From positions 360,530 through 424,529 of IMG/VR virus record IMGVR_UViG_3300017565_000001: a DNA stretch of 64,000 nt. One strand, written 5' to 3'. Positions 32,992 to 46,894 of this stretch are shown here, piece after piece. The position numbers were made by a program, and so were the translations under genes. Numbering within the stretch: position 1 is the stretch's first letter; every line of letters begins with the position of its first letter. The DNA comes from a virus (taxonomy: Duplodnaviria > Heunggongvirae > Uroviricota > Caudoviricetes). Under the pieces are notes generated by a model. That model was not told the origin of the DNA, did no database searches, and saw only the letters and a program-made list of their open reading frames with translations.

Positions 32992-33051
32992 GAATCAAGG
33001 GTTAGTGAATACTATGGGGTGAACGTTCACCCCATCTTTAGGGTTAGTCAT

Positions 33052-33741
33052 ATGATTGATAGAAAATTATTGATGACCATGTACCAGGATCCTGGTACAA
33101 CATCACCAGTAGGACCAGGGCCAGACACATTGATTCTCGGCGATATGACTGCTGGATATTATGGAACAGTTGCAAGCACTGAAGTCTTCAGTGCATCTCA
33201 ACTAAGAACTGCATTGGGAGTAACGACTGGAACTATTTGGAATGATACACCCTTGTGGGCAAAATTCGCTCACAACGGTTTAATCAAATACATTCCAATG
33301 GCGCCATTGGCTTACAGTTTAACTTGGCAGGCTCTTTATTTGGCTGGTGCGGTATATCCAAGTGGACCTGGTAACTATCCACCCACCGGCCAACCTGTGA
33401 CTCAGCAAGGAAAACAAGTAATGAATGGTCAGGGTTATAAGTTTTCCTGCGCTTTGATTTCAACTGGAACTGATCCGGTCCCAGTTAGTACCATACCAGC
33501 ATCCACATCTGAATATGCATTGATCAACAGGCTAATGAATGGACCCTGGGGTACTTCCACATATCAGGACTGGGGAGTGAATAATTTCTCCGCATATATG
33601 TGGATTATGCAGAGTCTTGATACCACTACTAATACCAAATTGAGTATCAGCTATTTGGCGAATAACGTAAACGGATATTCGACAGATCCCAATGACAACA
33701 GAAACATTTTGCATTGGCGTCCCATCCTTACGCTTCAATAA
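33052..33741 (+). CDS. Virion structural/adhesin-like protein (GPxxLxxG...AGYYG...WRPxL family)
   Basis: Starts MIDRKLLM; clear paralogue of 42672..43439. Confidence 0.65.
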   Translation: MIDRKLLMTMYQDPGTTSPVGPGPDTLILGDMTAGYYGTVASTEVFSASQLRTALGVTTGTIWNDTPLWAKFAHNGLIKYIPMAPLAYSLTWQALYLAGAVYPSGPGNYPPTGQPVTQQGKQVMNGQGYKFSCALISTGTDPVPVSTIPASTSEYALINRLMNGPWGTSTYQDWGVNNFSAYMWIMQSLDTTTNTKLSISYLANNVNGYSTDPNDNRNILHWRPILTLQ

Positions 33742-33931: not shown

Positions 33932-34028
33932 AAGAATATCCTCCAGTAAATTAGGACAATGATATTTATGGTGAACCATGCCAATTCTAAAGACTCCTTT
34001 AATGAATAAATATGTAAATCGTTCGATC

Positions 34029-34106
34029 TCTTGATGAGTTCCAATGATCAAAATATTCATGGAGAGCTGTCACTACTTCCTAATAGTGTGAGAACTCCAG
34101 GTAGAC
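34029..34106 (+). repeat. Box-hairpin-box element copy 1 (candidate small RNA)
   Basis: TCTTGATGAGTTC...CACTA/TAGTG hairpin...AGAACTCCAGGTAGAC, just after late promoter 34006-12; homologous copies at 44279 and 44408. Confidence 0.6.
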
Positions 34107-34126
34107 TTCTACAAACTGGCAATAAT

Positions 34127-34930
34127 ATGCGATACCATCAAATAATTAACGAGCTCGTGGGGGTGAAGCAATTCGCCAATATGAACGCTCAAGAGGTTCT
34201 TGACTATATCAAGAACACAATGGGTTCGACCAACATTCAGGTGTTGGGTCAAGGCTCGATGGGCGCTGCCCTGAAGATCGGTTCAACGGTATATAAGCTG
34301 TGGCAACAGGACAGTGCCTTCACTGACTTTGTGAAATACGCCAAGGCCAACTCCAATAACCCATATCTACCAAAGTTTTTCACTGATGTGAAAAGAATGC
34401 CTGCATTCTTTATTCGTCACGAAGACAGTGGCGATTATGTCAACTATGTTCGTATGGAAGAACTTGCACCATTGGGTGATTTGTTGAGTGGATCCTTTCC
34501 ATTGAAAATGGAATATCAAGATGCCGAAGACGAAGACGAACGTGGGCATCTGGGCCGTGTGAAGATAACCAGGGTCATTGAAATAATCAATGATTTACCA
34601 GACTCGGTCTTTCAGCCATTACGCCAATTCCAATTGAAGTTGAACGGAATGACTGGTCATGAATACAAATTAGACGACTTTCCAAATGACTTGAAACTGT
34701 TTGTTGAAACCCTTATGGAGATTAAACAGTTGGGTCATAACTTGGACCTTCACCCAGGCAACTTTATGTCCAGAGGTGGAAAACAATTGGTGATCATGGA
34801 CCCCATTGCCAACAAGGAAGACTTAAAGTTGAATCGAATATTCAGCAAGTTCAATTCCGATTTGAAGGCAAAAGCAAGTGAAGAAGCAAAACAAGCAATG
34901 ACGAGTAGAGTGTTCAGAAGTGGCCAATGA
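34127..34930 (+). CDS. Protein-kinase-like (Ser/Thr kinase fold) protein
   Basis: VLGQGSMG glycine loop, VYK lysine, MEEL hinge, DLHPGN catalytic loop, IMDP; start MRYHQIINE. Confidence 0.75.
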   Translation: MRYHQIINELVGVKQFANMNAQEVLDYIKNTMGSTNIQVLGQGSMGAALKIGSTVYKLWQQDSAFTDFVKYAKANSNNPYLPKFFTDVKRMPAFFIRHEDSGDYVNYVRMEELAPLGDLLSGSFPLKMEYQDAEDEDERGHLGRVKITRVIEIINDLPDSVFQPLRQFQLKLNGMTGHEYKLDDFPNDLKLFVETLMEIKQLGHNLDLHPGNFMSRGGKQLVIMDPIANKEDLKLNRIFSKFNSDLKAKASEEAKQAMTSRVFRSGQ

Positions 34931-35363
34931 TCATAGAGTTCCCCCAAAGCCACCATGGTTTGATACGGTACCAGAAGGGACATGTAAGTGGTGCAATAAG
35001 CAAATAGGATTGACGAAGAAAGGACAACCCAGCAAGTCACGCTGGCACCCTACATGCGTCAAGGAGTACAAGTTACTGTTCTGGCCTACTACCACGAGAC
35101 GAGCAGTCCTAAAGCGTGATAAAGGGGTTTGTAGGGGATGTGGTGTGCAGTGTAGTGGTAAAGGTGCTACACGGTGGCATATGGATCATATCCAACCACT
35201 AATAGAGGCTCAGGGGAATATGGATTTCTGGCGACTAGGAAACTTACAGACTCTATGCACTGCATGCCATAAAGAAAAGACTAGCAGGGAAGCGACTGAG
35301 CGCGCCGAAAAACGAAAATTGAAAAGAGAAAGCGATGTTGCACAAAAAGATCCTATTAAGTGA
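34920..35363 (+). CDS. HNH endonuclease (zinc-finger type)
   Basis: RDKGVCRGC...DHIQP...NLQTLCTACHKEK. Confidence 0.88.
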   Translation: MANDHRVPPKPPWFDTVPEGTCKWCNKQIGLTKKGQPSKSRWHPTCVKEYKLLFWPTTTRRAVLKRDKGVCRGCGVQCSGKGATRWHMDHIQPLIEAQGNMDFWRLGNLQTLCTACHKEKTSREATERAEKRKLKRESDVAQKDPIK

Positions 35364-36099
35364 AGCTGCGATAGACGATACACCGGTGGTCATTGATGCC
35401 AATGTGAAATTTCTTTGTCACTTTGATCAGAATCCACCGATCAATGCTGCGACAAATGGAGCTGGTACTGTGGTGAATGCCGGCTATTATAGAACACAAG
35501 TCATAACAAATGATCCCGCGTCTGCTAAATTTGGACAAGGATACTTGCTGCATGGTGGTACGGTTGGGGGTGGTGCTAGTGAGTATGTCACTTTTCCAAA
35601 AGGCTTTTCTTTCGGAACAAATAATTTCACTATTGATTCGTGGCATCTATGGAATGCATATGGATCAGCCAACGGTGCCCAACAGTATGGTTGGGAGTTT
35701 GGTTTGAATACGTCAAACAACTACTGTGGTTTGAATCTTTCAGGAACTCGATATAACGGTGGTATGCAGCTTACGGTTAATCGCGGTTTTAATGGTGTTC
35801 CAGCAGCAACCATCAACATACCTGGTCTATCATCTTTGTTGCCAACTACGGCGTATTTCCATGTCGCCATCGTTAGGGATGGATCGGTAATTAGGGTTTA
35901 TACAAATGGTATTTTGCGAAACTCACAAAATATCGGAGCGATAGCCATAACTGAAGGTACGCTACTGAAATTTGGTGTATCAAGTAATGCATACCAACCA
36001 GGTTGCGCTACTGACGAAGTTCGCATCGTTATGGATCAGGTTCTGTACACTGACGACTTTACGCCACCAACGGCGCCATTCCCCAATCCGATTATTTGA
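35335..36099 (+). CDS. LamG/concanavalin-A-like lectin domain virion protein
   Basis: FGTNNFTIDSW, HVAIVRDGS, DEVRI...YTDDFTPPTAPF. Confidence 0.75.
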   Translation: MLHKKILLSEAAIDDTPVVIDANVKFLCHFDQNPPINAATNGAGTVVNAGYYRTQVITNDPASAKFGQGYLLHGGTVGGGASEYVTFPKGFSFGTNNFTIDSWHLWNAYGSANGAQQYGWEFGLNTSNNYCGLNLSGTRYNGGMQLTVNRGFNGVPAATINIPGLSSLLPTTAYFHVAIVRDGSVIRVYTNGILRNSQNIGAIAITEGTLLKFGVSSNAYQPGCATDEVRIVMDQVLYTDDFTPPTAPFPNPII

Positions 36100-36124
36100 T
36101 GACGGTTATCCTAAAGAGAAAGTA

Positions 36125-36799
36125 ATGATATCAAAACGTTTGTTGATGACGAAGAAGGTAGCACCCGCCGGTGATCCCAATACGCTATTGATGATTCAAG
36201 GTGGTAGTATTGTGGATCAATCACTCAACCATTATTCTGGGACTCTACAGGGTACGAATTCAATCGTTTCAACAGGCGGAAAATTCAATAATGGTTATTT
36301 GGATTTTACGAATGGTCGATTGAATTATGATTTGCCCGACGTTACCACCAATTTGTTCATTGAGGCTTGGGTTCAATTGAAATCAAACTTCAATGGCACT
36401 TGGTGCCATTTAGTCGGGAAGGGAAACGGTCTGAATCAAGGCACATGGGTCATGGGGATTCAAAGCCGACAATTGACATTTGCGATCGGTGGTAGCACGA
36501 CGTCAAACCAATTCGCAGTTCGTGGAACGTCTACACTCGTAGCTAGTCAGTGGTATCACCTTGCCGCAAGTAAAGTTGGCAGCAGCTACTATGTTTTCGT
36601 GAATGGGGTTCGTGAGAATACGGGGACTTCAGCCTATTCTATGATCAATACTGCGGGATTCTCAATAGCAGACAGAAGGGCAAACGATATGTATTTGCAA
36701 TATCCAACAGCTGGGTTATTTGGAGGAGTGCGTATAGCTCTCAACAATAGTTCGCCAACTGCTACCTTCACACCGCCAACGGCTCCTTGGACTTCTTGA
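36125..36799 (+). CDS. LamG/concanavalin-A-like lectin domain virion protein
   Basis: Starts MISKRLLM; IEAWV, WYHLAA, FVNG; ends FTPPTAPW. Confidence 0.75.
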   Translation: MISKRLLMTKKVAPAGDPNTLLMIQGGSIVDQSLNHYSGTLQGTNSIVSTGGKFNNGYLDFTNGRLNYDLPDVTTNLFIEAWVQLKSNFNGTWCHLVGKGNGLNQGTWVMGIQSRQLTFAIGGSTTSNQFAVRGTSTLVASQWYHLAASKVGSSYYVFVNGVRENTGTSAYSMINTAGFSIADRRANDMYLQYPTAGLFGGVRIALNNSSPTATFTPPTAPWTS

Positions 36800-37133
36800 T
36801 GAAGGGATTGGTATCCTTGCACACAACATCCCACATAGAAGATTGATAATGGAGACAATCAGTGAGCTTTGCTATCGCTTCCCAATCGTCACTGTTGGTG
36901 AAGTACAGCTCAGTCATCCCCATCAAATCCCGATGGAGCATGAAATCAACGCCTGAGTCCCTGATAAGGCGTTTGAAGTCCGAATGATAGTCGGAATGGT
37001 GAGTCACGTAAACGATCGAATATTGGTGGGCTCCTTTCTTGGCCCACCAGGTTCTGGGCAAATTACCAATATCAGTCCTGACCTTGGTGCCAAACCGCAA
37101 GCGCAGATACCACCAGATCCGTCTTGATAGCAT
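36768..37133 (-). CDS. Hypothetical protein (small-paralogue family)
   Basis: Start MLSRRIWW immediately after upstream stop; LYFTNSDDWEAIAKL. Confidence 0.6.
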   Translation of the reverse strand: MLSRRIWWYLRLRFGTKVRTDIGNLPRTWWAKKGAHQYSIVYVTHHSDYHSDFKRLIRDSGVDFMLHRDLMGMTELYFTNSDDWEAIAKLTDCLHYQSSMWDVVCKDTNPFIKKSKEPLAV

Positions 37134-37134
37134 T

Positions 37135-37617
37135 TTAAATCCGATCGTGATCGTAAAACATGACTTCACCCAGTCTACTGTTGTGGAGTCTGGCATGCAT
37201 AAGCCAGTCATCATTGGACATGGCCACAACCCAGATGACATTGTCTTCACTGGCAGTCATTGGTGTCCAGGGAACAGTCATCCATTCAGCGCCACACCCG
37301 TCAAGTAAATCCGCCACTTCTTTTCGGAAAGCTTGCTCCAGATCTCTGATTGTGACGGCTTGGTCTCGAGCAGATGTATTGAACCCTCGGTACCATTCAT
37401 CCCGAACGAACCTGGATACGTAAAACAGGTAGACGTGTTTGTACTTGTTGGGGTTCACATGAATCCACCAGCTTCTTGGACCCTTGTAGGAATCATGAAA
37501 TCTTCCCACAAATCTGGGTTCAAAGATGGTACGAATGGTAGCGAAGAGAGATCGAAAGAATTCAAACACGAGTGTCCACCCGGGATACGTTGTCATCAAA
37601 AATAGAAGTTTCACCAA
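37135..37617 (-). CDS. Hypothetical protein (small-paralogue family)
   Basis: VAMSNDDWLMHARL; start uncertain (possibly 37596). Confidence 0.6.
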   Translation of the reverse strand: MVKLLFLMTTYPGWTLVFEFFRSLFATIRTIFEPRFVGRFHDSYKGPRSWWIHVNPNKYKHVYLFYVSRFVRDEWYRGFNTSARDQAVTIRDLEQAFRKEVADLLDGCGAEWMTVPWTPMTASEDNVIWVVAMSNDDWLMHARLHNSRLGEVMFYDHDRI

Positions 37618-37996
37618 ACATCAGACGATAGTGGATCAACCACTCGTCTGATTCCGCACCCACATAGAAAAATCTGGGGTTCTGCTCCATACAGATTCGA
37701 ACATCATGGCCTAACCGGTTTATTTCGACCAGATGATTTGAAATCTGGTGGTGGGCATTGTATAAGCGTTCTAATTCGCTGTGGACTTCGTCAAGCTCAT
37801 AATGAATGTTGGCAAAATCACGAGATACGCTGAAGATCCAAACTTTTCGCACATGCTCCCAACCTTTTCGATCCCACCAAAGTGATCGATCGATAGTGAG
37901 ACCAGCCGCCTTTATCTTGCGGCTGATTGTACGACGTTTGAACTCCCACCACAGGGAGCGCAATTCACCGATGCTTGCCATGAACTGCGGCGCCAC
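37562..37996 (-). CDS. Hypothetical protein (small-paralogue family)
   Basis: LRSLWW...RSLWWDRKG; VGAESDEWLIHYRL; start possibly 37981. Confidence 0.6.
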   Translation of the reverse strand: MAPQFMASIGELRSLWWEFKRRTISRKIKAAGLTIDRSLWWDRKGWEHVRKVWIFSVSRDFANIHYELDEVHSELERLYNAHHQISNHLVEINRLGHDVRICMEQNPRFFYVGAESDEWLIHYRLMFGETSIFDDNVSRVDTRV

Positions 37997-38426
37997 AAAG
38001 GCCCATCAGCGAGAAGTCAGCCAAATATTGTGCGAGTTCGGCCTTGTCACCAAAGACCCAGGCACAAGTGTCAAGCGGCAACAAATGCACCACTGCACCA
38101 TCCACCAACGGATAAGTGGGATCATGAACAACACTGGCAAAGAAACCGGCATCTTGGATGGCCATAACTTGCGCATTCATCAAGCTACCATCGGTAACGC
38201 CAAGCGTGATCGCCGTGCCGAAACCCAGTTCTTTACCCACACCTTGTTCCAGCCACAAATCATACAGCTTGGAAAGCTGGGAGTTGGGTTGTTCGGTCCG
38301 ATGAGCTTGCATGGCCGTTTGGAATTGGTGGGCGGCGTGAGAGCCTTGAGCTACGGCCTTGCCGGCGTTCATACTGGCCAAGTCGGTGCGCATGAGGATA
38401 TAGAAATACGGGGTCTTGGTGGTCAT
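37965..38426 (-). CDS. Peptidyl-tRNA hydrolase 2 (Pth2)-like protein
   Basis: YILMRTDLASMNAGKAVAQGSHAA is the Pth2 N-terminal signature; GGAGG RBS. Confidence 0.75.
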   Translation of the reverse strand: MTTKTPYFYILMRTDLASMNAGKAVAQGSHAAHQFQTAMQAHRTEQPNSQLSKLYDLWLEQGVGKELGFGTAITLGVTDGSLMNAQVMAIQDAGFFASVVHDPTYPLVDGAVVHLLPLDTCAWVFGDKAELAQYLADFSLMGLCGAAVHGKHR

Positions 38427-38493
38427 AGGGCCTCCTTCTTTAATGAACGAAGTATAACATATGGCCGAACGAAAGCAAGCCATAAATATTGAC

Positions 38494-39501
38494 ATGAATA
38501 CTGGAACACACAATGATTTCTACAAATGGGGCTGGGATGATGGCTGGTTCAATGCTCCACCAAATATCGACTCTACTTTCAAGGTGACATTCAAGTCACC
38601 ACAAAATACTCGAACCCTTAGAGAGGAATTGGTTGATGCTTGTCATCTGGTGGCAAATCGATTCAGCAAGCCCTTGATGGTGTGTTTTAGTGGTGGACTT
38701 GACTCTCAGATTGTTTGCTTGGCACTATTGGAAGCACAGATTCCATTTACGCCATTTATAATGAGCTGGAAAGCACCCGATGGTCATGTAATAAATGGCG
38801 ATGACGTAAAATATGCCATGGAGTTTTGCCAACGCCATGGATTAATTCCTTTGACTGATAGTGGATACTTGGAAGAGTTCTTGGAAGCAAAAGGACGTGA
38901 CTCAGCAAGAATCTCCAGGATCCCGTATTACAGGATGTTGACGCAAACTCACTATGCTGATAAGTTCAAGGATCAATATGCATTATTGATATGCGCCGGG
39001 AATCCCAACTTTGACGTAAGGGATGGTGAACTTATGATAAGTGCGCCCACGTCAACTATTCAACAATATTTCATTGACAATGACGTACAGGGCTCGGCCC
39101 AATTCCTCAAATACACGCCTGAACTATTCTGTTCGCAGGTACTGAATCCTATCACCAAATCATTCGTTGGATCTTTTCCAAGCTTGTATTCAGTATATGA
39201 AGAAAACAGTAAGACTCCGTGGTGGAGTTGGCGTCTATTCACATCGTATATCAAGCCCCTTATATACCAAGCATGTTGGGAAGATGGCTTGATTCATCGA
39301 AGCAAACGACACGGCTTCGAGACATATGATGATACTTTCTGGAAAGCCGAAATCCACCGTATAGGTTCTGAATCTTTCGGCCACAGGGATAATGAAGTAA
39401 GATTGAAGATCGGTGACTTTATGGCTTTCGCCGAATCAAAGTCACCGTTGCATCAAATTTGGTATGCAGATGGTAGAGTCCTTCACGAGCCAGTTATCTG
39501 A
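38494..39501 (+). CDS. PP-loop adenine-nucleotide alpha-hydrolase family protein
   Basis: VCFSGGLDSQ PP-loop; late promoter 38482-88 supports start at 38494. Confidence 0.7.
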   Translation: MNTGTHNDFYKWGWDDGWFNAPPNIDSTFKVTFKSPQNTRTLREELVDACHLVANRFSKPLMVCFSGGLDSQIVCLALLEAQIPFTPFIMSWKAPDGHVINGDDVKYAMEFCQRHGLIPLTDSGYLEEFLEAKGRDSARISRIPYYRMLTQTHYADKFKDQYALLICAGNPNFDVRDGELMISAPTSTIQQYFIDNDVQGSAQFLKYTPELFCSQVLNPITKSFVGSFPSLYSVYEENSKTPWWSWRLFTSYIKPLIYQACWEDGLIHRSKRHGFETYDDTFWKAEIHRIGSESFGHRDNEVRLKIGDFMAFAESKSPLHQIWYADGRVLHEPVI

Positions 39502-39841
39502 CCGATTCAACCATGTACGTGTGATTGCCAATCCATTGTTGATCCAACAACATGGCCATCATGATCCAGTTAACATCACGACAACACACCGTAGCAATAT
39601 GAGTGTGTTGTCCACGAATGGCAGTATCACCGAACGACAGAGTGAAATCACCATCCAGATGCTCCTGCAGAAACTCGTTCAACAAAAGTCGACGGTCGTC
39701 AAATAGTCGCATAGCCGTCAAGTAACCCTGTTGATTTTCACGAGTGGTTACCATGATGATGGTAGCCTTGTGCGGATAACGACCTTGATTTCTGGGGTCA
39801 TTGGGTGGAATCTTGGCGTTCTGGACTTCGATGTATGCCAT
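39494..39841 (-). CDS. Hypothetical protein (small-paralogue family)
   Basis: Coupled start (TAATG); VCCRDVNWIMMAMLL. Confidence 0.6.
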   Translation of the reverse strand: MAYIEVQNAKIPPNDPRNQGRYPHKATIIMVTTRENQQGYLTAMRLFDDRRLLLNEFLQEHLDGDFTLSFGDTAIRGQHTHIATVCCRDVNWIMMAMLLDQQWIGNHTYMVESVR

Positions 39842-40134
39842 TACTCAACTCCCTCAGCAGCAAACCACTCATCGATGGTGTAGATGTTTGGACCGTAGAA
39901 GACCCCGTTTTCAAAGAAGTCGGACGGCGAAAAGGTTTGGCCAGCGAACGTAACCTCACGTTCAAACTGCGAACGTTTGATGAGATCCTCGAAATCAACA
40001 AGGGCCGCCTCCGAGGATTCGTATTTGAACGGAATGGTTTCTCCGCAAGAATACGTGCAGCCATCACCAACCGTGAAACACATCACCAAACGTTCCATGA
40101 CTTTCTCCGTTATTGATTGCGCCAAATGATACAC
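39841..40134 (-). CDS. Hypothetical protein
   Basis: Tightly packed in the minus-strand operon; start may be ~40098 (MERLV). Confidence 0.6.
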   Translation of the reverse strand: MYHLAQSITEKVMERLVMCFTVGDGCTYSCGETIPFKYESSEAALVDFEDLIKRSQFEREVTFAGQTFSPSDFFENGVFYGPNIYTIDEWFAAEGVE

Positions 40135-40149
40135 GATTGGCGCAAAGAA

Positions 40150-40422
40150 TCAACGCGCAGCAGGTTTGTCTTCCTCAAGCGCCTTCCACTTCATTGCAGG
40201 GCGACAACGTTCGATTACGCCCTGGTCATTAACTTTGGGCAACCAAGTATTCCCAGCCAGATACAACACTTGACCATACGGATTGCAACGTTCGGCCATA
40301 GTGGAAGTGACAGCCTTGATAACCTTACCGGAATCAGTGATGAACATGGGTTCATCCACGGGGGCACTACGGTCGGTACATCCGACCAACAGTACGACAA
40401 ACAATGCGGCGATATATTTCAT
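40150..40422 (-). CDS. Putative lipoprotein
   Basis: MKYIAALFVVLLVG-C lipobox signal; AAGGA RBS. Confidence 0.7.
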   Translation of the reverse strand: MKYIAALFVVLLVGCTDRSAPVDEPMFITDSGKVIKAVTSTMAERCNPYGQVLYLAGNTWLPKVNDQGVIERCRPAMKWKALEEDKPAAR

Positions 40423-40435
40423 GGTCGAGTTGTCC

Positions 40436-40954
40436 TTAGAATTTGATGTTATGCATCTTGGCAATAGCAAGCATCGCCTCAGCGTTACCCTTGGCGTCGT
40501 CCAGAGCGTCATGGGTGTGCTTGGTGATCTTCAGATGCTTCCACTTAGATGCGGCGCGCCAATCCTTCTTGAGACCCGCATAGAAGTCCCCAATGCGACG
40601 TGAGCTGAACCCGAATGGATTCTCGCCCAAATATCGGTGGCAGTAATAGTTCACGAACTGCCAATCAAAGCCGTTGTTATCAGACACGAAAACGGCATTA
40701 CCTTCGTTTGTGGCGTTGATGAAGGTCAACAGGTCTTTCATGACTTGAAGCGGATCTTCATAAGTCATTGTTTCATCACGGGTCAATCCGATCGCTTTCA
40801 GGGCTCCTGGATCGTACTGGTCAGTGACGGGTTTCAGGGTGCGAACGAAAGTCGTATCCAGTGCGTCGTCCACTTTGACAATGCCGATTTGCACCATACT
40901 GAATAGTCCGGGACAAGGGCCGTCAGCCTCAACGTCAACCACATAAATGCTCAT
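40436..40954 (-). CDS. DEDDh 3'-5' exonuclease
   Basis: VVDVEADG, NNGFD, HDALDDA; AAGGAG RBS. Confidence 0.85.
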   Translation of the reverse strand: MSIYVVDVEADGPCPGLFSMVQIGIVKVDDALDTTFVRTLKPVTDQYDPGALKAIGLTRDETMTYEDPLQVMKDLLTFINATNEGNAVFVSDNNGFDWQFVNYYCHRYLGENPFGFSSRRIGDFYAGLKKDWRAASKWKHLKITKHTHDALDDAKGNAEAMLAIAKMHNIKF

Positions 40955-40985
40955 TTGTTTGTTCTCCTTATATGATGGCGCCATT

Positions 40986-41381
40986 TTATGGTGAAATCAT
41001 TTTGGGATCAAGTGAATGTTCACCCACACCTTCAATGAAACGAAGCTGTGATATCATCCAATTCAGATCATGGAGACGCAGATACATGGCGATGTCCTGA
41101 TAATCACCATTGAAATAGATGACGAGGACTAGATCCTTTACCAAAACCATAGAATCCACAAAATTCTCAAGTTTGGGTCCGTGTTCTTCTACGAATGCCC
41201 GATACTCTTCATGGCATTCGTTTGGGCGGCCATTCACGAATTCTCTTAAAACTGGACTGAACAGAAGTCGATATCGGAATTCTGGTTGGGGCCAATATGA
41301 TAGCGAACCACCGATCCGATCGTCACCGTAGATGACTTGATCGTGCCATGGTTCCGTTGGATTGAAATGTGTTTTTGGCAA
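40986..41381 (-). CDS. Hypothetical protein (small-paralogue family)
   Basis: GGAGG + TTG start; IYFNGDYQDIAMYLRL. Confidence 0.6.
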   Translation of the reverse strand: MPKTHFNPTEPWHDQVIYGDDRIGGSLSYWPQPEFRYRLLFSPVLREFVNGRPNECHEEYRAFVEEHGPKLENFVDSMVLVKDLVLVIYFNGDYQDIAMYLRLHDLNWMISQLRFIEGVGEHSLDPKMISP

Positions 41382-41426
41382 ATGGACCTCCGTAGAGGTC
41401 CATTTTATGGCGTCAATTACCGGGAA

Positions 41427-41822
41427 TCAACAGGATTGGCGATATTCAGTAGCCAGAATCATAGAAACTAACCACTCCCGTTCCATCAACCTGGCTATAA
41501 CCATCCAGGAATCATCATGAACATAAAGTTCCAATGATCCACTATGGGGGTCCTGATACAACTCCAGACTGTCAGAATCCAAGTTTAGATCTTGTATACC
41601 CTGTATGATCCGATTACGGATGATAGAGGTAGTAGCTCGTTTCTGAGCTATGCAGAAGATCACTCGTTGCGGGAAGTTACAATTCTTCCAGGGTCTAACG
41701 CTTTCATCCCAGTGTTTTCCAGGGACCAAGGGGTCATCCACGGGAAGTTTGCTGGGATGAAGCACGGTGATTTTACGGTTCACCGTGTTTTCAAAGAATG
41801 TCGCCAATGAGCTATTGTTCAT
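41427..41822 (-). CDS. Hypothetical protein (small-paralogue family)
   Basis: Coupled to neck-gene stop; LYVHDDSWMVIARL. Confidence 0.6.
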   Translation of the reverse strand: MNNSSLATFFENTVNRKITVLHPSKLPVDDPLVPGKHWDESVRPWKNCNFPQRVIFCIAQKRATTSIIRNRIIQGIQDLNLDSDSLELYQDPHSGSLELYVHDDSWMVIARLMEREWLVSMILATEYRQSC

Positions 41823-42586
41823 TATCCAATGACGAAGCTGTATCCGTAATTGCCATCGATCTGCGTTGCAACTTCACGCTCTAGACGCTCTAGCTCAGCG
41901 AGACCCTCTGACTTCATGGCGTCCCCGTTGAGTGTTGCACCGCCCTGTGGCCCTGCAATCTGACTGAACTTGCTACGAGCTTCACCAATGATGATCTTTG
42001 CTTGAGCAATCGAATAGTCACGAATCCATGGCCTTGAATATACGTCAGTGATGATAAGTTCTTCAGGCTTTTGATTGTAGGCCCACAGTAACAAAGTTTC
42101 AGTGGTTCCGAATTTGCGATGCAACTGAAGACGATGACGTGAAGCTTCCCATGTGAAGATAATCTCACGGCCGAACATACGACCAGCAAGCTCCTGGTAC
42201 TGCATGGCGAGGTCATACGTTGCGAGTGATCCCGAAGCACCAGCTTGTTGGCTCTGGTTGGGGTTGCTCAACATGTACAGGTTGTTGGTGTAGGCCAGGT
42301 TGAAGGGGTCAATCTGCGCTCCCGTACCAGCATTTGAGCCAATGCCACGACGATACACTTGACGCACCAACTGAACTTCTGGTGGCAGCGTGTAAACGTC
42401 TTGATCTCTTTGAGTATCCAGGAAAATGAAGCTTTCTTCCATTGCATTGCTGGCCCTCTGACGATAACGGTCGATAGCCATGGTTACAGCCAGGTCGTAA
42501 TGCTCTGGGTCTGCTTCCAAGTCAATGATACCAGCACCCAGACGGAGCTGAACTTCTTTAACGAGTTTCTGTCTTGCGGTAGTCAC
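41822..42586 (-). CDS. Neck protein, gp13-like
   Basis: GGAGG + GTG at 42586; LRLGAGIIDLE...WIRDYSIAQAK...KFSQIAGPQGGATLNG. Confidence 0.88.
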   Translation of the reverse strand: MTTARQKLVKEVQLRLGAGIIDLEADPEHYDLAVTMAIDRYRQRASNAMEESFIFLDTQRDQDVYTLPPEVQLVRQVYRRGIGSNAGTGAQIDPFNLAYTNNLYMLSNPNQSQQAGASGSLATYDLAMQYQELAGRMFGREIIFTWEASRHRLQLHRKFGTTETLLLWAYNQKPEELIITDVYSRPWIRDYSIAQAKIIIGEARSKFSQIAGPQGGATLNGDAMKSEGLAELERLEREVATQIDGNYGYSFVIG

Positions 42587-42671
42587 AGAAAACCTCCAAT
42601 TGAATTTGTACCAGATATTTACCCCTAGGTGAAACCATTTATCAATAAATATTTGATTAATTGGGGAAGTC

Positions 42672-43439
42672 ATGAACATTAATCAAAAGCTACTATTCAA
42701 CCAAGGGAAGAAGGCCTCGGGTCCAGTAATTCCTGGCGATACAGGATTGGGGCCCACAACACTCGTGGGGTCATACCAAAATCCCAATGATCCACAGAAG
42801 TTCGCCGGTTACTACGGGACGATAACAGCCACCAACTTCTTTACTGGAACCCAAGTGGCGAGTGGTATTGGTCTTAGTGGAGGAACTGCTATAAACGACA
42901 CTACGATCTGGATGAAGTTTATTCTGGATGGTAAAATCATACTGATCCCACAGAAACCGATTAGATATGGCTCCTTTTGGAATAACCTATACGCGGTTGG
43001 TGCCGTATACGGTGATGGAACGACTGGCACATTCCCAGCCACCACCCCTGTGATTCAATCAGCAGTTGTATCAAGGTCTGGATATTCATACCGAGTACGA
43101 TTGATACACGGATACAATAGCGATCCAGCTGCTCAAACCACCGCTGCTGATGCTCCAGTGACTTTTGGTTCTGAATGGAATCGCCTCCTATACAACGTTT
43201 GTTCATCAGTAACTCCCAGCAGTCAACAGGGTACCAAATGGGCATCATTTACTAATGCTGATATGGGCTTTAACGGTAGTACGGGGAGCATAAGCATCGT
43301 TCAGGAAACAACCAGTAGCACCAACAACAGTATAGGTTTGCTGCGAGGATTCAACGGTGTTGATGGTTGCACGTATGGCAGCAAATCTAATATCAATAAT
43401 AATGGCGGGTGGCGCCCAGCCCTAGAACTAATCATCTGA
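42672..43439 (+). CDS. Virion structural/adhesin-like protein, paralogue of 33052
   Basis: GPTTLVG...AGYYG...WMKF...GSEWNRLLY...GWRPALEL; late promoter 42645-51. Confidence 0.65.
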   Translation: MNINQKLLFNQGKKASGPVIPGDTGLGPTTLVGSYQNPNDPQKFAGYYGTITATNFFTGTQVASGIGLSGGTAINDTTIWMKFILDGKIILIPQKPIRYGSFWNNLYAVGAVYGDGTTGTFPATTPVIQSAVVSRSGYSYRVRLIHGYNSDPAAQTTAADAPVTFGSEWNRLLYNVCSSVTPSSQQGTKWASFTNADMGFNGSTGSISIVQETTSSTNNSIGLLRGFNGVDGCTYGSKSNINNNGGWRPALELII

Positions 43440-43454
43440 TCTTATGGGGAAATC

Positions 43455-44264
43455 ATGAACATATCAGACCAAATACTACTGACTGGTGGAAAATTCATTC
43501 AGAAGTATACCGCAACAGCAAATAAAACTTCTATGGTTTGGGGTGACACGATCGCTTTTACCATAACTCCCAGCCCAGTCCTGAAGGCTAACAAACAGAT
43601 ATTCTGGAAATTGATTGGTAATACTACGATCACTAGTTCAATGGTGAGAAGTGGTGGCATTCAGGGCTCACCCACGATGGTGGCGAATACTCCCCTGACT
43701 GTAACCCTTGTGACTGATGTGGTGAAAACATCAGGCTTGCAGATAAGACTTGTTATGGCAGAAACATCAGCCGATTTGACAGCAGGAACGTATAAGGCAT
43801 CCAGTCCTCTGGTTAATATGACAATTAGTCCAACTTCATCAGCTACTCTGTCAACAGTTGGCTCCAGTACATGGACGGTCCCAACAAACGTTTACAAGAT
43901 CACGGCTACGATCGATGCTGCGGGTGGTGGAGCAGGTGGTCCTTACTTTTTCTATGGATCAACGGGTGGTCCTGGTGGTAATGGTGGCAGAATCACATAC
44001 ACGGTCTATACGACTCCTGGAACTCAATACGGATATACGGTTGGTTCAGGTGGACAAGGCGGTGGTGATGCATTGAATGGTTCTAGTGGTACGAATTCAG
44101 TATTCAACAATAATACCGCCATAGCAGGAGGTGGTGGCTTTTCCAGTTCAGTAAGAGGTGGATTAGGAGCTAGTGGTACTAATGGTGGTAATGGCTTGGG
44201 TAGTCCTGGTGGTCAGACAAGTGGTGCTACTGGTACCAATGGTAAGATCGTTATTAACTGGTAA
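43455..44264 (+). CDS. Glycine-rich adhesin-like tail-fibre protein
   Basis: WTVPTNVYKI...AAGGGAGG...GGNGG...VGSGGQGG; ends GKIVINW, a polyglycine-rich domain typical of fibre-tip adhesins. Confidence 0.7.
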   Translation: MNISDQILLTGGKFIQKYTATANKTSMVWGDTIAFTITPSPVLKANKQIFWKLIGNTTITSSMVRSGGIQGSPTMVANTPLTVTLVTDVVKTSGLQIRLVMAETSADLTAGTYKASSPLVNMTISPTSSATLSTVGSSTWTVPTNVYKITATIDAAGGGAGGPYFFYGSTGGPGGNGGRITYTVYTTPGTQYGYTVGSGGQGGGDALNGSSGTNSVFNNNTAIAGGGGFSSSVRGGLGASGTNGGNGLGSPGGQTSGATGTNGKIVINW

Positions 44265-44278
44265 TCACTAAGGTGGTT

Positions 44279-44471
44279 TCTTGTCATGATTCATGGATCA
44301 TACCACAACCAATAAGCGACTATGTGTGATGTCGTAGAACTCCAGGTAGACATATGGGAATTGGTCCATGGTTCACGAATAATATCAATGGGATTTCATG
44401 GACCACTTCTTGATGAATTCATGACGAAGATATCAAACAGACCTTTTGACTGTGGGCAATCTCCAGGTAGA
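44279..44471 (+). repeat. Two tandem copies of the box-hairpin-box element (44279-44351, 44408-44471)
   Basis: AGAACTCCAGGTAGAC identical to 34091-34106; second CTCCAGGTAGA at 44461; TCTTGATGAATTC at 44408. Confidence 0.6.
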
Positions 44472-44557
44472 TAATCGCAGATTTGATATCAACATCAAGT
44501 AATCAGTTCATTTAACCAGTCTCACCTCTCACTAAATATTCATATGAGAGGTGACTT

Positions 44558-45636: not shown

Positions 45637-46116
45637 ATGAAAACAGGAAAAGGCGGCAAGGACCTCATTAAGTTCTACGAGGGTCTTCCAAAACAAAACA
45701 AGGCGGGCAAGTATCCACCATATATTTGCCCGGCTGGCTATCCAACCCTGGGTTACGGTAGCCGATACAAGATGAATGGCAAAGAAGTGACGATGAAGGA
45801 CAATGCTGTCACATTGACTGAGGCTGAAGAACTCTTGGATTATTCCCTGGGTACATATGAAGCTGTGGTTAATAGTCTGGTTACGGTACCACTCACCCAG
45901 AACCAGTATGATGCCCTGGTAAGCTTCGTATACAACCTGGGAGCAGCTAATTTCAAGAGTTCGACACTGTTGCGCAAGTTGAACGCTGGAGACTACCAGG
46001 GGGCCGCAGAACAGTTCCTGGTATGGAATAAGGCACGAGTAAATGGTTCCTTGGTTGCACTGCCTGGCTTGACCAAGCGTCGCACAGCTGAACGTGAACT
46101 GTTTTTGAAGAACTGA
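45637..46116 (+). CDS. Endolysin, GH24 lysozyme
   Basis: IKFYEG...CPAGYPTLGYG, LTQNQYDALVSFVYNLG, GLTKRRTAE. Confidence 0.92.
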   Translation: MKTGKGGKDLIKFYEGLPKQNKAGKYPPYICPAGYPTLGYGSRYKMNGKEVTMKDNAVTLTEAEELLDYSLGTYEAVVNSLVTVPLTQNQYDALVSFVYNLGAANFKSSTLLRKLNAGDYQGAAEQFLVWNKARVNGSLVALPGLTKRRTAERELFLKN

Positions 46117-46189: not shown

Positions 46190-46894
46190 ATGAATTATTT
46201 CAAAATCTACCAAAATCTAGTAATTAAAGCCCAATCTAGAAATAGTCTGTCGGGTTATGTAGAAATTCACCACATTATCCCAAGATCTATGGGTGGTTCC
46301 GATATTGATTCGAATTTGGTCAAAATGACTGCTAGGGAACATTTTGTCGCTCATTTATTACTCGCCAAAATGTATGGTGGCCCAATGCTAACAGCCCTTT
46401 GGTATATGACAAACAAATCCAAAGGCAGTCTTGGTAGTAGAACCTATTCTTGGTTGAAAGAAGAAAACGCGGAAAGAATGTCCATCATTCTTTCCGGAAA
46501 AACCAAAAGCCCTGAACACCTGGCGAAAATATCCGAGTCCCTAAAAGTAAGCGAGCGGGCCAGGGAACAACGTGAGGCTAATCATGAGGCGATGCGTGGT
46601 AAAAGCAATTCTCATAAGGGCCAGCAACAAAATCCCGAATGGATTGAAAAGCGAGTTTCAAAGTTAAAAGGCCAATCTAGATCCGATGAGACAAAGGAAA
46701 AAATGGGTGCTTGGATTAGAACCACAGAAACCAAAGACAAAATACGCAAATCTCGGATTGGTAAATCATCTGGAATGAAGGGAAAACGGCACGACTCTGA
46801 AACATTGCAGAAGATGAGTGATGCCGCAAAGGGAAAACCATGGAGTGAAGCTCGTAGAGCAGCTTACCTCAACAAAAGGAATGAAATAAAATGA
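46190..46894 (+). mobile_element. Free-standing HNH homing endonuclease with NUMOD3-type DNA-binding repeats
   Basis: EIHHIIPRSMGG...NLVKMTAREHFVAH; C-terminal KSPEHLAKIS, RSDETKEKM, HDSETLQKMS repeats. Confidence 0.88.

What the first reader, a model, noticed from the sequence alone, without database searches (positions are those of the whole stretch)
34006..44500. Three-copy box-hairpin-box element (TCTTGATGA ... CTCCAGGTAGA) at both edges of the accessory region
Seen: copy 1 at 34029-34106, copy 2 at 44279-44351, copy 3 at 44408-44471, all non-coding on the + strand. Each has a 5' box (TCTTGATGAGTTCCAATGA / TCTTGTCATGATTCATGGA / TCTTGATGAATTCATGA), a variable middle and a hairpin of different sequence (CACTA/TAGTG; GCGAC/GTCGT; ACAG/CTGT). 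An invariant CTCCAGGTAGA follows, with 16 nt identical between copies 1 and 2. Copy 1 starts ~17 nt after a late promoter. The 44.3-44.5 kb spacer has extra long stems (TGGTCCATG/CATGGACCA, GATATCAAA/TTTGATATC, CTTGATG/CATCAAG). Inference: fixed boxes around variable cores with conserved structure suggest a family of small late RNAs (guide-, decoy- or antitoxin-mimic-like; TGATGA resembles a box C motif). DNA recombination sites next to the adhesin genes are an alternative.
Basis: partly seen in the sequence, partly recalled or inferred. Interest (0 to 1): 0.8.

Follow-up and report, generated by a model that had tools for sequence, protein, structure and literature searches.

The report
Dispersed conserved DNA motif, jumbo phage
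A strictly conserved 22-40-base DNA motif with looser side boxes lies at ten places in a 424-kb phage genome, marks spots where related phages swap gene cassettes, and is preserved even inside two genes, so it looks like a working DNA signal and not the folded small RNAs first proposed.

Summary
CTCCAGGTAGA occurs 3 times in the window and 15 times at 10 loci in the 424,529-bp jumbo myovirus (about 0.2 expected). Further copies occur in at least five related uncultured phage lineages, and none in 185,579 bacterial or archaeal genomes.

The element is a mosaic. It has an invariant linear block, (G)ATGTCGTA(R)A or ...AAT/RAA, then CTCCAGGTAGA, then nTnnnnnAAnT. Loosely conserved TTCAYGR/TTCNNGAAT, CAATGGGATT and ATTCATGGAGAG boxes precede it.

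I found no RNA-structure signal:
- RNAalifold gave -0.34 kcal/mol with 0 covarying pairs.
- Fold z-scores were -0.75 to +1.25.
- The core hairpins were not significant.
- There was no Rfam hit and no Nop gene.

Copies lie in both orientations (13 co-oriented, 4 antisense). Two lie in frame inside genes: guaC (antisense) and a 534-aa ORF (sense). There synonymous sites are frozen across relatives (22/23 vs 153/302 codons, p=8e-6; 10/12 vs 46/186, p=7e-5).

Window copies sit exactly at junctions where relatives gain, lose or replace cargo genes, including adhesin-like ones. Left and right halves reassort across the core.

Best reading (0.42): a functional, protein-recognised DNA cis-element, most likely promoter-like, that also serves as a recombination junction. 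It is PeSL-like in role but not a PeSL. The scan had not noted this element on other DNA.

The parts
33019..33741 (+). Adhesin-like cargo gene immediately upstream of element I. It has no homologue in the syntenic relative G015.
   Evidence: PHROG virion-protein hits. tblastn against G005/G015 found nothing at E<=1e-3. Present in the 95% relative L146.
34006..34012 (+). Late-promoter-like ATAAATA upstream of element I.
   Evidence: Read. Conserved in L146. The G015 homologue has CTAAATA 22 nt before its ATG, with a Shine-Dalgarno sequence and no element.
34029..34126 (+). It is a type-2 unit lying between the late promoter and the ATG at 34127 of a kinase-like gene.
   Evidence: The orthologous site in L146 holds a type-1 unit closest to this genome's A2 copy.
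34055..34066 (+). ATTCATGGAGAG box. It is shared with two other units (G2 and H2) 39-41 nt before the core.
   Evidence: Exact 12-mer at only 3 genome sites. Alignment.
34095..34105 (+). Invariant core CTCCAGGTAGA.
34106..34119 (+). 3' box CTTCTACAAACTGG (family consensus nTTCTGCAAACTTG).
42672..44264 (+). Two cargo genes, one adhesin-like and one Gly-rich. Together with element J they form an insertion between the Ad2-like gene start and the late promoter of the gene at 44558.
   Evidence: Absent from G015, where the two flanking genes are back to back. Present in L143. Replaced by an unrelated 157-aa gene in L144.
44279..44362 (+). Element J1 (copy 2). It is a type-3 unit with GATGTCGTAGAA at 44328-44339, the core at 44340-44350 and the CATATGGGAATT linker box at 44351-44362.
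   Evidence: (34-nt identity with locus A).
44362..44405 (+). Spacer module. Stem TGGTCCATG/CATGGACCA encloses the TTCACGAAT and CAATGGGATT boxes.
   Evidence: An analogous module with a different stem (ATGCCA/TGGCAT) occurs at locus E. It is not statistically supported as RNA structure.
44408..44499 (+). Element J2 (copy 3). It is a type-1 unit with the core at 44461-44471 and the 3' box TAATCGCAGATTTGATA at 44472-44488, enclosed by CTTGATG/CATCAAG and GATATCAAA/TTTGATATC.
   Evidence: In L143 the corresponding unit is type 3.
44532..44538 (+). Late-promoter-like CTAAATA of the virion gene at 44558. It marks the ancestral junction downstream of the element.
   Evidence: Conserved in L143 and L144. 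TATAAATA sits at the same place in G015.

Best explanation
The three window copies belong to a lineage-specific family of interspersed mosaic DNA elements. Their working part is a linear, sequence-defined block of about 22-40 bp. It reads GATGTCGTA(R)A (or a diverged ...AAT/RAA version), then CTCCAGGTAGA, then nTnnnnnAAnT. Optional, loosely conserved TTCAYGR/TTCNNGAAT-type boxes precede it.

I propose that it acts as double-stranded DNA recognised by a protein. The most likely form is a promoter- or operator-type signal of a phage-specific class. Because identical copies lie at many gene-cassette boundaries, it would also serve as portable homology. The phage's own homologous recombination would use that homology to swap unit halves and to move neighbouring cargo genes in and out, adhesin-like genes included. 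In role it resembles the PeSL 'mobile regulatory cassettes' of T4-type phages.

Shown here:
- the family and its mosaic structure;
- the absence of conserved RNA structure;
- its location at indel and rearrangement junctions;
- swapping of unit subtype at orthologous sites;
- nucleotide-level purifying selection inside two genes.

Inferred only: that a protein reads it, that it is promoter-like, and that recombination between copies causes the cassette turnover instead of merely accompanying it.
For: Family and distribution:
- There are 15 exact cores at 10 loci against about 0.2 expected, and 0 for the control pattern.
- An nhmmer profile finds the same 15 plus 1 decayed copy and nothing else.
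- Related copies occur in G005/G015, in four metagenome contigs and in Logan contigs L140-L149.
- The nine other clade genomes searched have no exact copy of the 11-nt core. The 22-nt block is absent from 185,579 prokaryote genomes.

Linear, not folded:
- Eleven type-3 units share the invariant ATGTCGT..AACTCCAGGTAGA.T.....AA.T.
- RNAalifold gives -0.34 kcal/mol, 3 pairs and 0 covariation.

DNA-level constraint in either orientation:
- In guaC (element antisense), 22 of 23 same-amino-acid codons are identical across three phages inside the element, against 153 of 302 outside (p=7.6e-6).
- In the 534-aa ORF (element sense), GATGTCGTAAACTCCAGGTAGARATCTCGAAACTYTACAGT is kept in four phages down to 47% protein identity. 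That is 10 of 12 against 46 of 186 codons (p=7e-5). The GA before TGT is kept although the residue alternates between Gly and Arg.

Junction role:
- Element J plus two cargo genes are inserted exactly between two genes that abut in G015.
- L144 has a different cargo gene with two cores at the same place.
- Locus H lies in a 13.6-kb stretch missing from G015, and the G005/G015 copies lie at a synteny breakpoint.

Recombination between copies:
- Each 3' box type occurs with several 5' types.
- There are 44-48-nt identities between distant loci.
- The orthologous I and J sites in a 95% relative hold other subtypes.

Promoter-like hints (weak):
- Orientation is 13 with local genes and 4 against (one-sided binomial 0.025).
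- Several downstream genes start 18-32 nt after the core without a Shine-Dalgarno sequence.
- The core ends in a TAGAnn hexamer with the A2 of a -10 element, and T6 in most copies.
- No transposase or recombinase was found that could offer another mechanism.
Against: - No -35/-10 sigma-70 pair and no terminator coincide consistently with the copies.
- No phage RNA polymerase of the T7 type was found, though that search had no positive control.
- One core lies only 3 nt before a start codon.
- Four loci are antisense to their neighbours and two are intragenic. This is unusual for promoters.
- No binding protein is identified.
- The orientation bias is modest and some loci are not independent.
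- The frozen synonymous sites could in principle reflect recent exchange of the block between phages and not function.
- Gene boundaries outside the window rest on a crude ORF caller of my own.
Confidence: 0.42

Rival explanations
1. Purely selfish mobile repeat, MITE/RPE-like. The element copies itself to new sites, including in-frame insertions into tolerant loops of genes. It has no function for the phage. Conservation reflects the needs of its mobilising enzyme or recent spread.
For: - It is multi-copy, short and non-coding, and is restricted to a narrow lineage.
- It is embedded in frame in guaC at the variable loop where IMPDH carries its CBS domain. It is absent from the guaC of G006, G007 and several others.
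- It is embedded in frame in a second gene.
- Copies lie at non-syntenic sites in G005/G015.
- Some loci carry partial inverted cores of 7-10 nt.
- Rickettsia RPEs set the precedent for in-frame insertions (PMC10969869).
Against: - There are no general terminal inverted repeats, and no target duplication could be seen.
- No Y1 transposase, TnpB, serine recombinase or tyrosine recombinase is in the genome.
- Positions are stable between relatives at 85-95% identity.
- The intragenic copy in the 534-aa ORF has persisted, with frozen synonymous sites, down to 47% protein identity. This is hard to explain without function.
- No decayed copies are scattered around the genome, except one.
Confidence: 0.18
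2. Recognition site of a phage-encoded sequence-specific DNA enzyme or replication factor. This could be a nickase site as in T5, phiKMV and tf, a homing-type endonuclease site, or an R-loop origin as in T4 ori(34). Breaks or R-loops at the sites would make them recombination hot spots.
For: - The size of the invariant block (22-40 bp) fits such sites.
- Copies function-neutral to orientation and inside genes are acceptable for such sites.
- There are ten loci spread over the whole genome.
- Mosaicism and rearrangement breakpoints occur at the sites.
- HNH genes are present and polymorphic nearby.
- Phage nick sites are short repeated consensus sequences, for example CGACxxxxxCCTA/CTCCGG in phiKMV-like phages (PMC3517423).
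- From my own recollection, not checked against a paper here: T4 ori(34) lies inside a gene.
Against: - Known nick sites all lie on one DNA strand. Here the split is 7 forward and 8 reverse.
- The likeness to the phiKMV consensus is only compositional. The order of the sub-motifs is mirrored (my reading).
- No nuclease gene travels with the element.
- Nothing physical can be tested from sequence.
Confidence: 0.17
3. RNA-level element. Either it is a family of small structured late RNAs, or it is a linear mRNA motif. A linear motif could be a processing site, a binding site for a protein or sRNA, or sense/antisense pairing between mRNAs that carry opposite orientations.
For: - Most copies are co-oriented with transcription (13:4).
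- Element I lies inside the 5' UTR of a late transcript in two phages.
- A 6-bp pairing GGGATT or GAGATT with AATCTC is possible in type-1 units, and TGGAG with CTCCA in type-2 units.
- mRNAs carrying opposite orientations could form duplexes of up to about 24 of 25 nt.
Against: - There is no consensus structure or covariation.
- Fold z-scores are not below shuffles on either strand, and the hairpins are not significant.
- There is no Rfam family.
- No flanking promoter/terminator pair was found.
- There is no Nop gene and no box D.
- The antisense intragenic copy in guaC is as constrained as the sense copies. This argues for a DNA-level reading.
- The variable cores have only chance-level complementarity to the genome.
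Confidence: 0.12
4. Remnant of a coding sequence: a decayed ORF or a shared peptide motif such as (V/I)YLE on the minus strand.
For: - In guaC the reverse strand reads FAEFYLEIEQ.
- Unrelated IMG/VR phages carry the core inside a conserved gene that reads ...VYLEEKR.
Against: - The core is read as KLQVE, TPGR and (reversed) YLE at different loci.
- Most copies are intergenic.
- Conservation is at the nucleotide level, synonymous sites included.
- The IMG/VR hits share nothing beyond the pattern.
Confidence: 0.01

Closest known systems
PeSLs (promoter-early stem-loops), the 'mobile regulatory cassettes' of T4-type phages (PMC2839356, PMC4122927)
   Same: Both are short composite intergenic repeats in a T4-related myovirus. 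Both concentrate at boundaries of non-core cargo genes. Indels and replacements between close relatives have their ends at the repeats. Crossovers occur inside short identical boxes.
   Different: A PeSL is a sigma-70-like early promoter plus a terminator stem-loop. Neither is detectable here. This element has a much longer invariant block. It occurs in both orientations and inside coding sequence, and it is under synonymous-site constraint there.
Rickettsia palindromic elements and other intragenic MITEs (review PMC10969869)
   Same: Both are short repeats found in frame inside unrelated metabolic genes without destroying them. The guaC copy sits in a surface loop that tolerates insertions.
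   Different: There is no palindromic or terminal-inverted-repeat architecture. Only 2 of 10 loci are intragenic. No transposase was found. The intragenic copies are conserved more strongly than the host gene's own synonymous sites.
REP/BIME mosaic elements with RAYT transposases
   Same: Both show mosaic combinations of a few short motifs, often in tandem pairs, mostly extragenic. A GTAG tetranucleotide lies inside the core.
   Different: There is no conserved imperfect palindrome and no Y1/RAYT gene. The element is phage-borne.
Site-specific nick consensus sequences of T5-, phiKMV- and tf-like phages (PMC3517423)
   Same: Both are short exact consensus sequences repeated a few to about 15 times per phage genome, with enigmatic function.
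   Different: Known nick sites all lie on one strand. Here both strands carry copies. The sequence likeness to CGACxxxxxCCTA/CTCCGG is superficial. No physical evidence is available.
Archaeal/eukaryotic box C/D guide RNAs
   Same: TGATGA is present near the 5' end of two window copies, and a variable stretch lies between fixed boxes.
   Different: TGATGA is not conserved in the family. There is no box D, no k-turn pairing and no Nop-domain protein. Copies lie in both orientations and inside genes.

Membership tests
PeSL (T4-type mobile regulatory cassette) | Strong sigma-70-like early promoter (-35/-10) within the repeat | tested here: not met
   Consensus scans at both window loci give no consistent site and counts at or below the shuffle means. 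No conserved -35 lies 17 nt before TAGAnn.
PeSL (T4-type mobile regulatory cassette) | Adjacent stem-loop acting as a terminator | tested here: not met
   No terminator-like site lies in the elements. Hairpins are not better than shuffles.
PeSL (T4-type mobile regulatory cassette) | Located at the ends of indels or replacements of non-core genes between close relatives | tested here: met
   Loci I, J and H against G015, L143/L146 and L144.
PeSL (T4-type mobile regulatory cassette) | Recombination between neighbouring copies yields mini-circles | not testable with these tools
   Needs inverse PCR on infected cells.
MITE | Terminal inverted repeats | tested here: not met
   Complementarity of the flanks to the core is not general (Fisher p 0.19 upstream, 0.80 downstream). 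Only 4-5 copies have a 7-10-nt inverted partial core.
MITE | Target-site duplication at filled versus empty sites | tested here: inconclusive
   Empty sites exist only in relatives too diverged for nucleotide-level boundaries.
MITE | Cognate transposase in the genome or host | tested here: inconclusive
   No Y1_Tnp, TnpB zinc-ribbon, resolvase or tyrosine recombinase was found in the phage. DDE families and the unknown host were not tested.
REP/BIME with RAYT | GTAG-headed imperfect palindrome plus a Y1 (RAYT) transposase | tested here: not met
   GTAG lies inside the core, but there is no conserved palindrome. PF01797 is absent.
RPE-like intragenic repeat | In-frame, stop-free presence inside unrelated protein-coding genes | tested here: met
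   guaC and the 534-aa ORF, which is collinear with single proteins in relatives.
Box C/D small RNA | Conserved box C (RUGAUGA) and box D (CUGA) brought together by terminal pairing | tested here: not met
   TGATGA is in 2 of 3 window copies and is not a conserved column in the 22 units. There is no CUGA after the core.
Box C/D small RNA | Nop5/Nop56-type partner protein | tested here: not met
   PF01798 is absent from the genome, and the control rang in 4 archaea. Fibrillarin and L7Ae were not tested.
Any Rfam family | Match at the gathering score or a suggestive E-value | tested here: not met
   No hit on the elements in the window or in seven other loci.
IS200/IS605-derived element or omega-RNA | TnpA (Y1) and/or TnpB nearby, with subterminal hairpins | tested here: not met
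Phage nick-site consensus | All sites on one DNA strand | tested here: not met
   7 forward and 8 reverse.
Phage nick-site consensus | Physical single-strand interruption at the site | not testable with these tools
   Needs virion DNA.

The most novel reading that the evidence does not exclude
The 22-40-bp block is a previously undescribed class of phage cis-acting DNA signal. It could be a promoter for a phage-specific transcription mode, an R-loop origin, or a nick or cleavage site. Purifying selection maintains it even inside two unrelated protein-coding genes, in either orientation. Its dispersed copies would be the programmed exchange points through which this jumbo-phage lineage gains, loses and swaps cargo cassettes, adhesin-like genes included.
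Probability: 0.35. Interest if true: 0.7.

Novelty: new variant of a known kind. Interest (0 to 1): 0.5.

Why it matters
Jumbo phages of the Atu_ph07/Phosso clade are almost unstudied at the level of gene regulation and genome plasticity.

This motif is a concrete, testable handle. It is a 22-nt exact sequence that marks ten loci. It survives inside coding sequence against synonymous drift. It sits exactly where related phages differ in cargo, including receptor-binding-type genes.

If it is a promoter or origin class, it defines a regulon or the replication map of a 424-kb virus. If it is a recombination or nick site, it explains how cassettes are exchanged. It also explains why assemblies of these phages break at it.

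There is a cautionary lesson too. 'Fixed boxes around variable hairpins' in three copies suggested a structured RNA. That impression disappeared once 22 copies were compared.

Tried and rejected
- Rfam at gathering and E-value thresholds, on the window and seven other loci: nothing on the elements.
- tRNA/tmRNA scan of the window: none.
- blastn of both window loci against 50,697 phage records: no match.
- IMG/VR scan with core plus GCAAACTT: 4 hits, all chance matches inside one conserved gene of unrelated small phages.
- Structured-RNA tests gave no support: unit folds, core hairpins against shuffles, RNAalifold and strand folding with dinucleotide shuffles.
- General pairing of the flanks with the core: not significant.
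- Helical phasing of TTCNNGR boxes: a weak signal at 10.5-12 nt. Copies are not independent, so I did not use it.
- Guide-target idea: blastn-short of all loci against the genome gave only 13-19-nt chance-level hits.
- Sigma-70 promoter and terminator scans: nothing consistent.
- Sigma-54-type GG-N10-GC reading, by eye: the spacing is 9, and the GC is not conserved in relatives.
- Link to late promoters: only loci I and J have a TAAATA motif nearby.
- Enzyme searches in the genome found none of Y1_Tnp, TnpB, resolvase, tyrosine recombinase, Nop or T7-type RNAP. The RNAP search had no positive control.
- Neighbouring genes show no shared family and no nuclease.
- The two other guaC insertions are not repeats. 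A CAATGGGATT at genome position 339826 is a chance match in coding sequence.
- The phiKMV nick consensus was compared and judged only superficially similar.
- Whole-contig motif counts in the Logan relatives could not be made, because those records are not held.

Full report
**1. The observation**

The window is bases 360,530-424,529 of a 424,529-bp virus record with direct terminal repeats and 47.7% G+C. Its structural genes are T4-like: baseplate wedge, portal, a 977-aa sheath and the large terminase. The terminase is 58.6% identical to that of Sinorhizobium phage Phosso and 55% to that of Agrobacterium phage Atu_ph07.

CTCCAGGTAGA with up to one mismatch occurs 3 times in the window, against 0.61 expected. 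None of 100 shuffles reached 3. The listed stems, the 16-nt identity between copies 1 and 2, and ATAAATA 17 nt before copy 1 are all present.

**2. The family is genome-wide**

The exact 11-mer occurs 15 times in the genome, 7 forward and 8 reverse. The reversed-order control pattern occurs 0 times. By my arithmetic, chance would give about 0.2.

A profile built from the 15 copies finds those 15, one decayed copy (CTCCAGGTAaGA at genome position 234,289), and nothing else above noise. Sensitive BLAST of the loci against the genome adds nothing.

The copies form ten loci, named A-J here. In genome kb they lie at 40.8+, 69.0-, 132.7+, 155.9-, 190.3-, 234.3+, 276.6-, 344.9-, 394.6+ and 404.9+. 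Five loci hold two cores 75-150 nt apart. Loci I and J are the window copies.

**3. Anatomy**

Lining up all units shows an invariant centre. It consists of AA(A/T), then CTCCAGGTAGA, then a 3' box nTTCTGCAAACTTG(ATA). The 3' box is replaced by cWTATGGGAATT when another unit follows.

Upstream there are three forms:
- **Type 3:** GATGTCGTA(R)A abuts the core. It is preceded by TTCAYGR boxes or by 10-11-nt tandem repeats that differ between loci.
- **Type 1:** CAATGGGATT or ACGAGATT, then about 26 nt, then AAT and the core.
- **Type 2:** ATTCATGGAGAG, then about 25 nt, then RAA and the core.

The 'variable cores' of types 1 and 2 are not free sequence. They share (T)TGATGnTG...AA with the type-3 box, so they are diverged versions of it.

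**4. Mosaicism**

Distant loci share long exact segments: 44 nt between C and G, 48 nt between E and F, and 34 nt between A and J. Each 3' box type is found joined to several 5' types. For example, ATTCTGCAAACTTG follows a type-1 unit at B and a type-3 unit at D. So the left and right halves have reassorted across the core.

**5. No sign of a structured RNA**
- Eleven type-3 units from five phage lineages align with an invariant linear block. RNAalifold gives -0.34 kcal/mol, three pairs and no covariation.
- The three window copies fold no better than dinucleotide shuffles. Their z-scores are -0.75, +1.25 and +0.51, and the reverse strands behave alike.
- Ten units gave z-scores between -1.9 and +0.75 on both strands.
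- Pairing between the flanks and the core is not general. A few loci do carry 7-10-nt inverted partial cores.
- Rfam has no match.
- There is no consistent sigma-70 promoter or terminator.
- Only loci I and J have a late-promoter motif nearby.
- There is no Nop-domain gene.

**6. Orientation and coding context**

In this genome seven loci point the same way as their neighbouring genes. Three do not (B, D and E). Adding independent loci from relatives gives 13 with and 4 against, a one-sided binomial of 0.025.

Two loci lie inside genes:
- **Locus B** is antisense inside GMP reductase (PF00478, E=1e-66). It sits in a 40-residue segment that the guaC of relatives G006 and G007 lacks. Other phage GuaC proteins have nothing there, or unrelated inserts at the same loop.
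- **Locus C** is sense inside a 534-aa ORF. This ORF is collinear with single proteins of relatives, so it is one gene.

The core is read as KLQVE, as TPGR and, reversed, as YLE. It is therefore not a peptide motif.

**7. Nucleotide-level selection**

Protein searches found closer relatives than IMG/VR holds.
- **guaC.** The guaC genes of two other phages (86-88% protein identity, 85-88% DNA identity over 2-6 kb) carry the same antisense element. I compared codons whose amino acid is the same in all three phages. Inside the element 22 of 23 codons are identical, against 153 of 302 elsewhere (Fisher p=7.6e-6). The one change in the central stretch falls in a hairpin loop.
- **The 534-aa ORF.** Its orthologues in three other phages (72, 65 and 47% identity) all keep GATGTCGTAAACTCCAGGTAGARATCTCGAAACTYTACAGT. 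That is 10 of 12 same-amino-acid codons identical, against 46 of 186 elsewhere (p=7e-5). The preceding linker is unalignable, and the synonymous sites immediately after the block vary freely. The GA before TGT is kept although the residue switches between Gly and Arg.

The block is thus constrained as nucleic acid, in sense and in antisense contexts alike. This favours a DNA-level function. Pure junk fits it poorly, and so does an RNA read from one strand only.

**8. Distribution**

The nine more distant clade genomes that were searched (terminase 69% identity or less) have no exact copy of the 11-nt core. The closest IMG/VR relatives, G005 and G015 (terminase 74%), have three copies at other positions. 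All three carry a lineage-specific 3' box, TTTTGAGGAAYTYG.

Four short metagenome contigs carry CATGTCGTAAACTCCAGGTAGACTTC after arrays of TTCNNGAAT boxes. The 22-mer is absent from 185,579 bacterial and archaeal genomes.

**9. Junctions of cassette exchange**

Synteny with G015 shows the following:
- The two genes at window 42672-44264 plus element J form an insertion. It lies exactly between the start of the Ad2-like gene and the late promoter of the gene at 44558. In G015 those two genes are back to back.
- The adhesin-like gene at 33019-33741 is also missing from G015.
- Element I (about 98 nt) lies between the late promoter and the ATG at 34127. The G015 homologue has CTAAATA, 22 nt with a Shine-Dalgarno sequence, then ATG.
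- Locus H lies between two LamG/adhesin-like genes, in a 13.6-kb stretch that G015 lacks.
- The G005/G015 copies sit at a breakpoint where genome position 349.6 kb is joined to an inverted 418-393 kb segment. They lie upstream of genes that have no element in this phage.

Two closer relatives add detail:
- In a 95% relative (L143/L146) the elements are at the same two positions but have been remodelled. The I site holds a type-1 unit that most resembles this genome's A2 copy. The J site holds one decayed and two intact type-3 units.
- In an 81% relative (L144/L145) a different 157-aa gene preceded by two cores occupies the J position. Two independent assemblies end inside a core, as expected for a repeat.

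**10. What could move or read it**

The genome has no Y1 transposase, TnpB, serine recombinase or tyrosine recombinase. No T7-type RNA polymerase was found, but that search had no positive control. Neighbouring genes share no family.

The phage carries the T4-type recombination and repair set, for example an SbcC-like protein. Ectopic homologous recombination between copies is therefore the simplest driver of the mosaicism. This is an inference.

**11. Interpretation**

The evidence fits a functional, sequence-defined DNA site that doubles as portable homology at cassette boundaries. I favour a promoter- or operator-type signal for four reasons:
- the size of the block;
- the orientation bias;
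- the short leaders without a Shine-Dalgarno sequence at several downstream genes;
- the TAGAnn end of the core.

This step is inference. No -35 element, factor or transcript is in hand, one core is 3 nt from a start codon, and intragenic and antisense copies are unusual for promoters.

A nick, cleavage or origin site is a serious rival and would explain the recombination directly. A purely selfish repeat is weakened by the long-term synonymous-site conservation and by positional stability. The structured-RNA reading is the least supported.

**12. Comparison with known systems**

In role the element is closest to the PeSL cassettes of T4-type phages (PMC2839356, PMC4122927). It lacks both of their defining parts, the sigma-70 promoter and the terminator stem-loop. 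It shares in-frame intragenic residence with Rickettsia RPEs (PMC10969869) but has no palindromic architecture. It is not a REP/BIME, an IS200/IS605 derivative, a box C/D RNA or any Rfam family.

I file it as a new variant of the interspersed regulatory/recombination cassette kind, with its function still to be shown.

**13. Limits**
- Gene boundaries outside the window come from a crude ORF caller of my own.
- All relatives are metagenomic contigs, some from the same samples, so the loci are not fully independent.
- The host is unknown. A betaproteobacterial-type tmRNA in the genome is a hint only.
- No expression or physical data exist.

Noticed in passing
L001:2304-2711 (genome 41,612-42,019; outside the window): Strong Rfam matches to the betaproteobacterial two-piece (permuted) tmRNA: RF01850 at 128 bits and RF04321 at 134 bits. 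The site lies about 0.7 kb downstream of element locus A. This is a hint that the host is a betaproteobacterium.
   Followed up: no
window 46190-46894: The HNH endonuclease gene between the endolysin and gp15 genes is absent from the 95% and 81% relatives, where lysozyme is followed directly by gp15 (L143, L144). A 51%-identical copy is present in G015. This is a homing-endonuclease presence/absence polymorphism.
   Followed up: partly
genome 155,590-156,478 (L019/L005; outside the window): An 890-nt stretch with no ORF of 100 codons or more lies between two + strand genes (the longest is 83 codons) and contains element D in antisense orientation. Rfam finds nothing. It could hold an unannotated RNA or small genes.
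   Followed up: no
genome 68,690-69,943 (guaC; L018): Besides the element, this GMP reductase has two further insertions of 15 and 19 residues relative to G006/G007. They are not repeated DNA. The 19-residue one is shared with many phage GuaC proteins, and its codons 311-320 are nearly identical in three phages.
   Followed up: partly
genome 67,894-68,586: A 201-aa gene directly upstream of guaC is missing from the 88%-identical relative contig L140. This is another small cargo indel, and no element lies at its ends.
   Followed up: no
G015 (L103-L105) against genome 315-418 kb: The closest IMG/VR relative has the 393-418 kb structural segment inverted and joined to 349.6 kb. It also lacks about 13.6 kb (336-349.5 kb). 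The endolysin gene at window 45637-46116 has no homologue on that contig.
   Followed up: partly
L008:1-80 (genome 232,863-232,942): A weak, truncated match to the Y RNA-like family YrlA (29.7 bits, gathering score 69, E=0.0075). It may relate to the Ro/Y-like RNAs that other first-stage notes describe for this genome.
   Followed up: no
L144 and L145, position 1: Two independent Logan assemblies of about 122.8 kb and 122.6 kb end at the same base inside the GATGT|CGTAAACTCC box of an element. A repeat breaking a de Bruijn graph would do this. A physical end or nick is not excluded.
   Followed up: no
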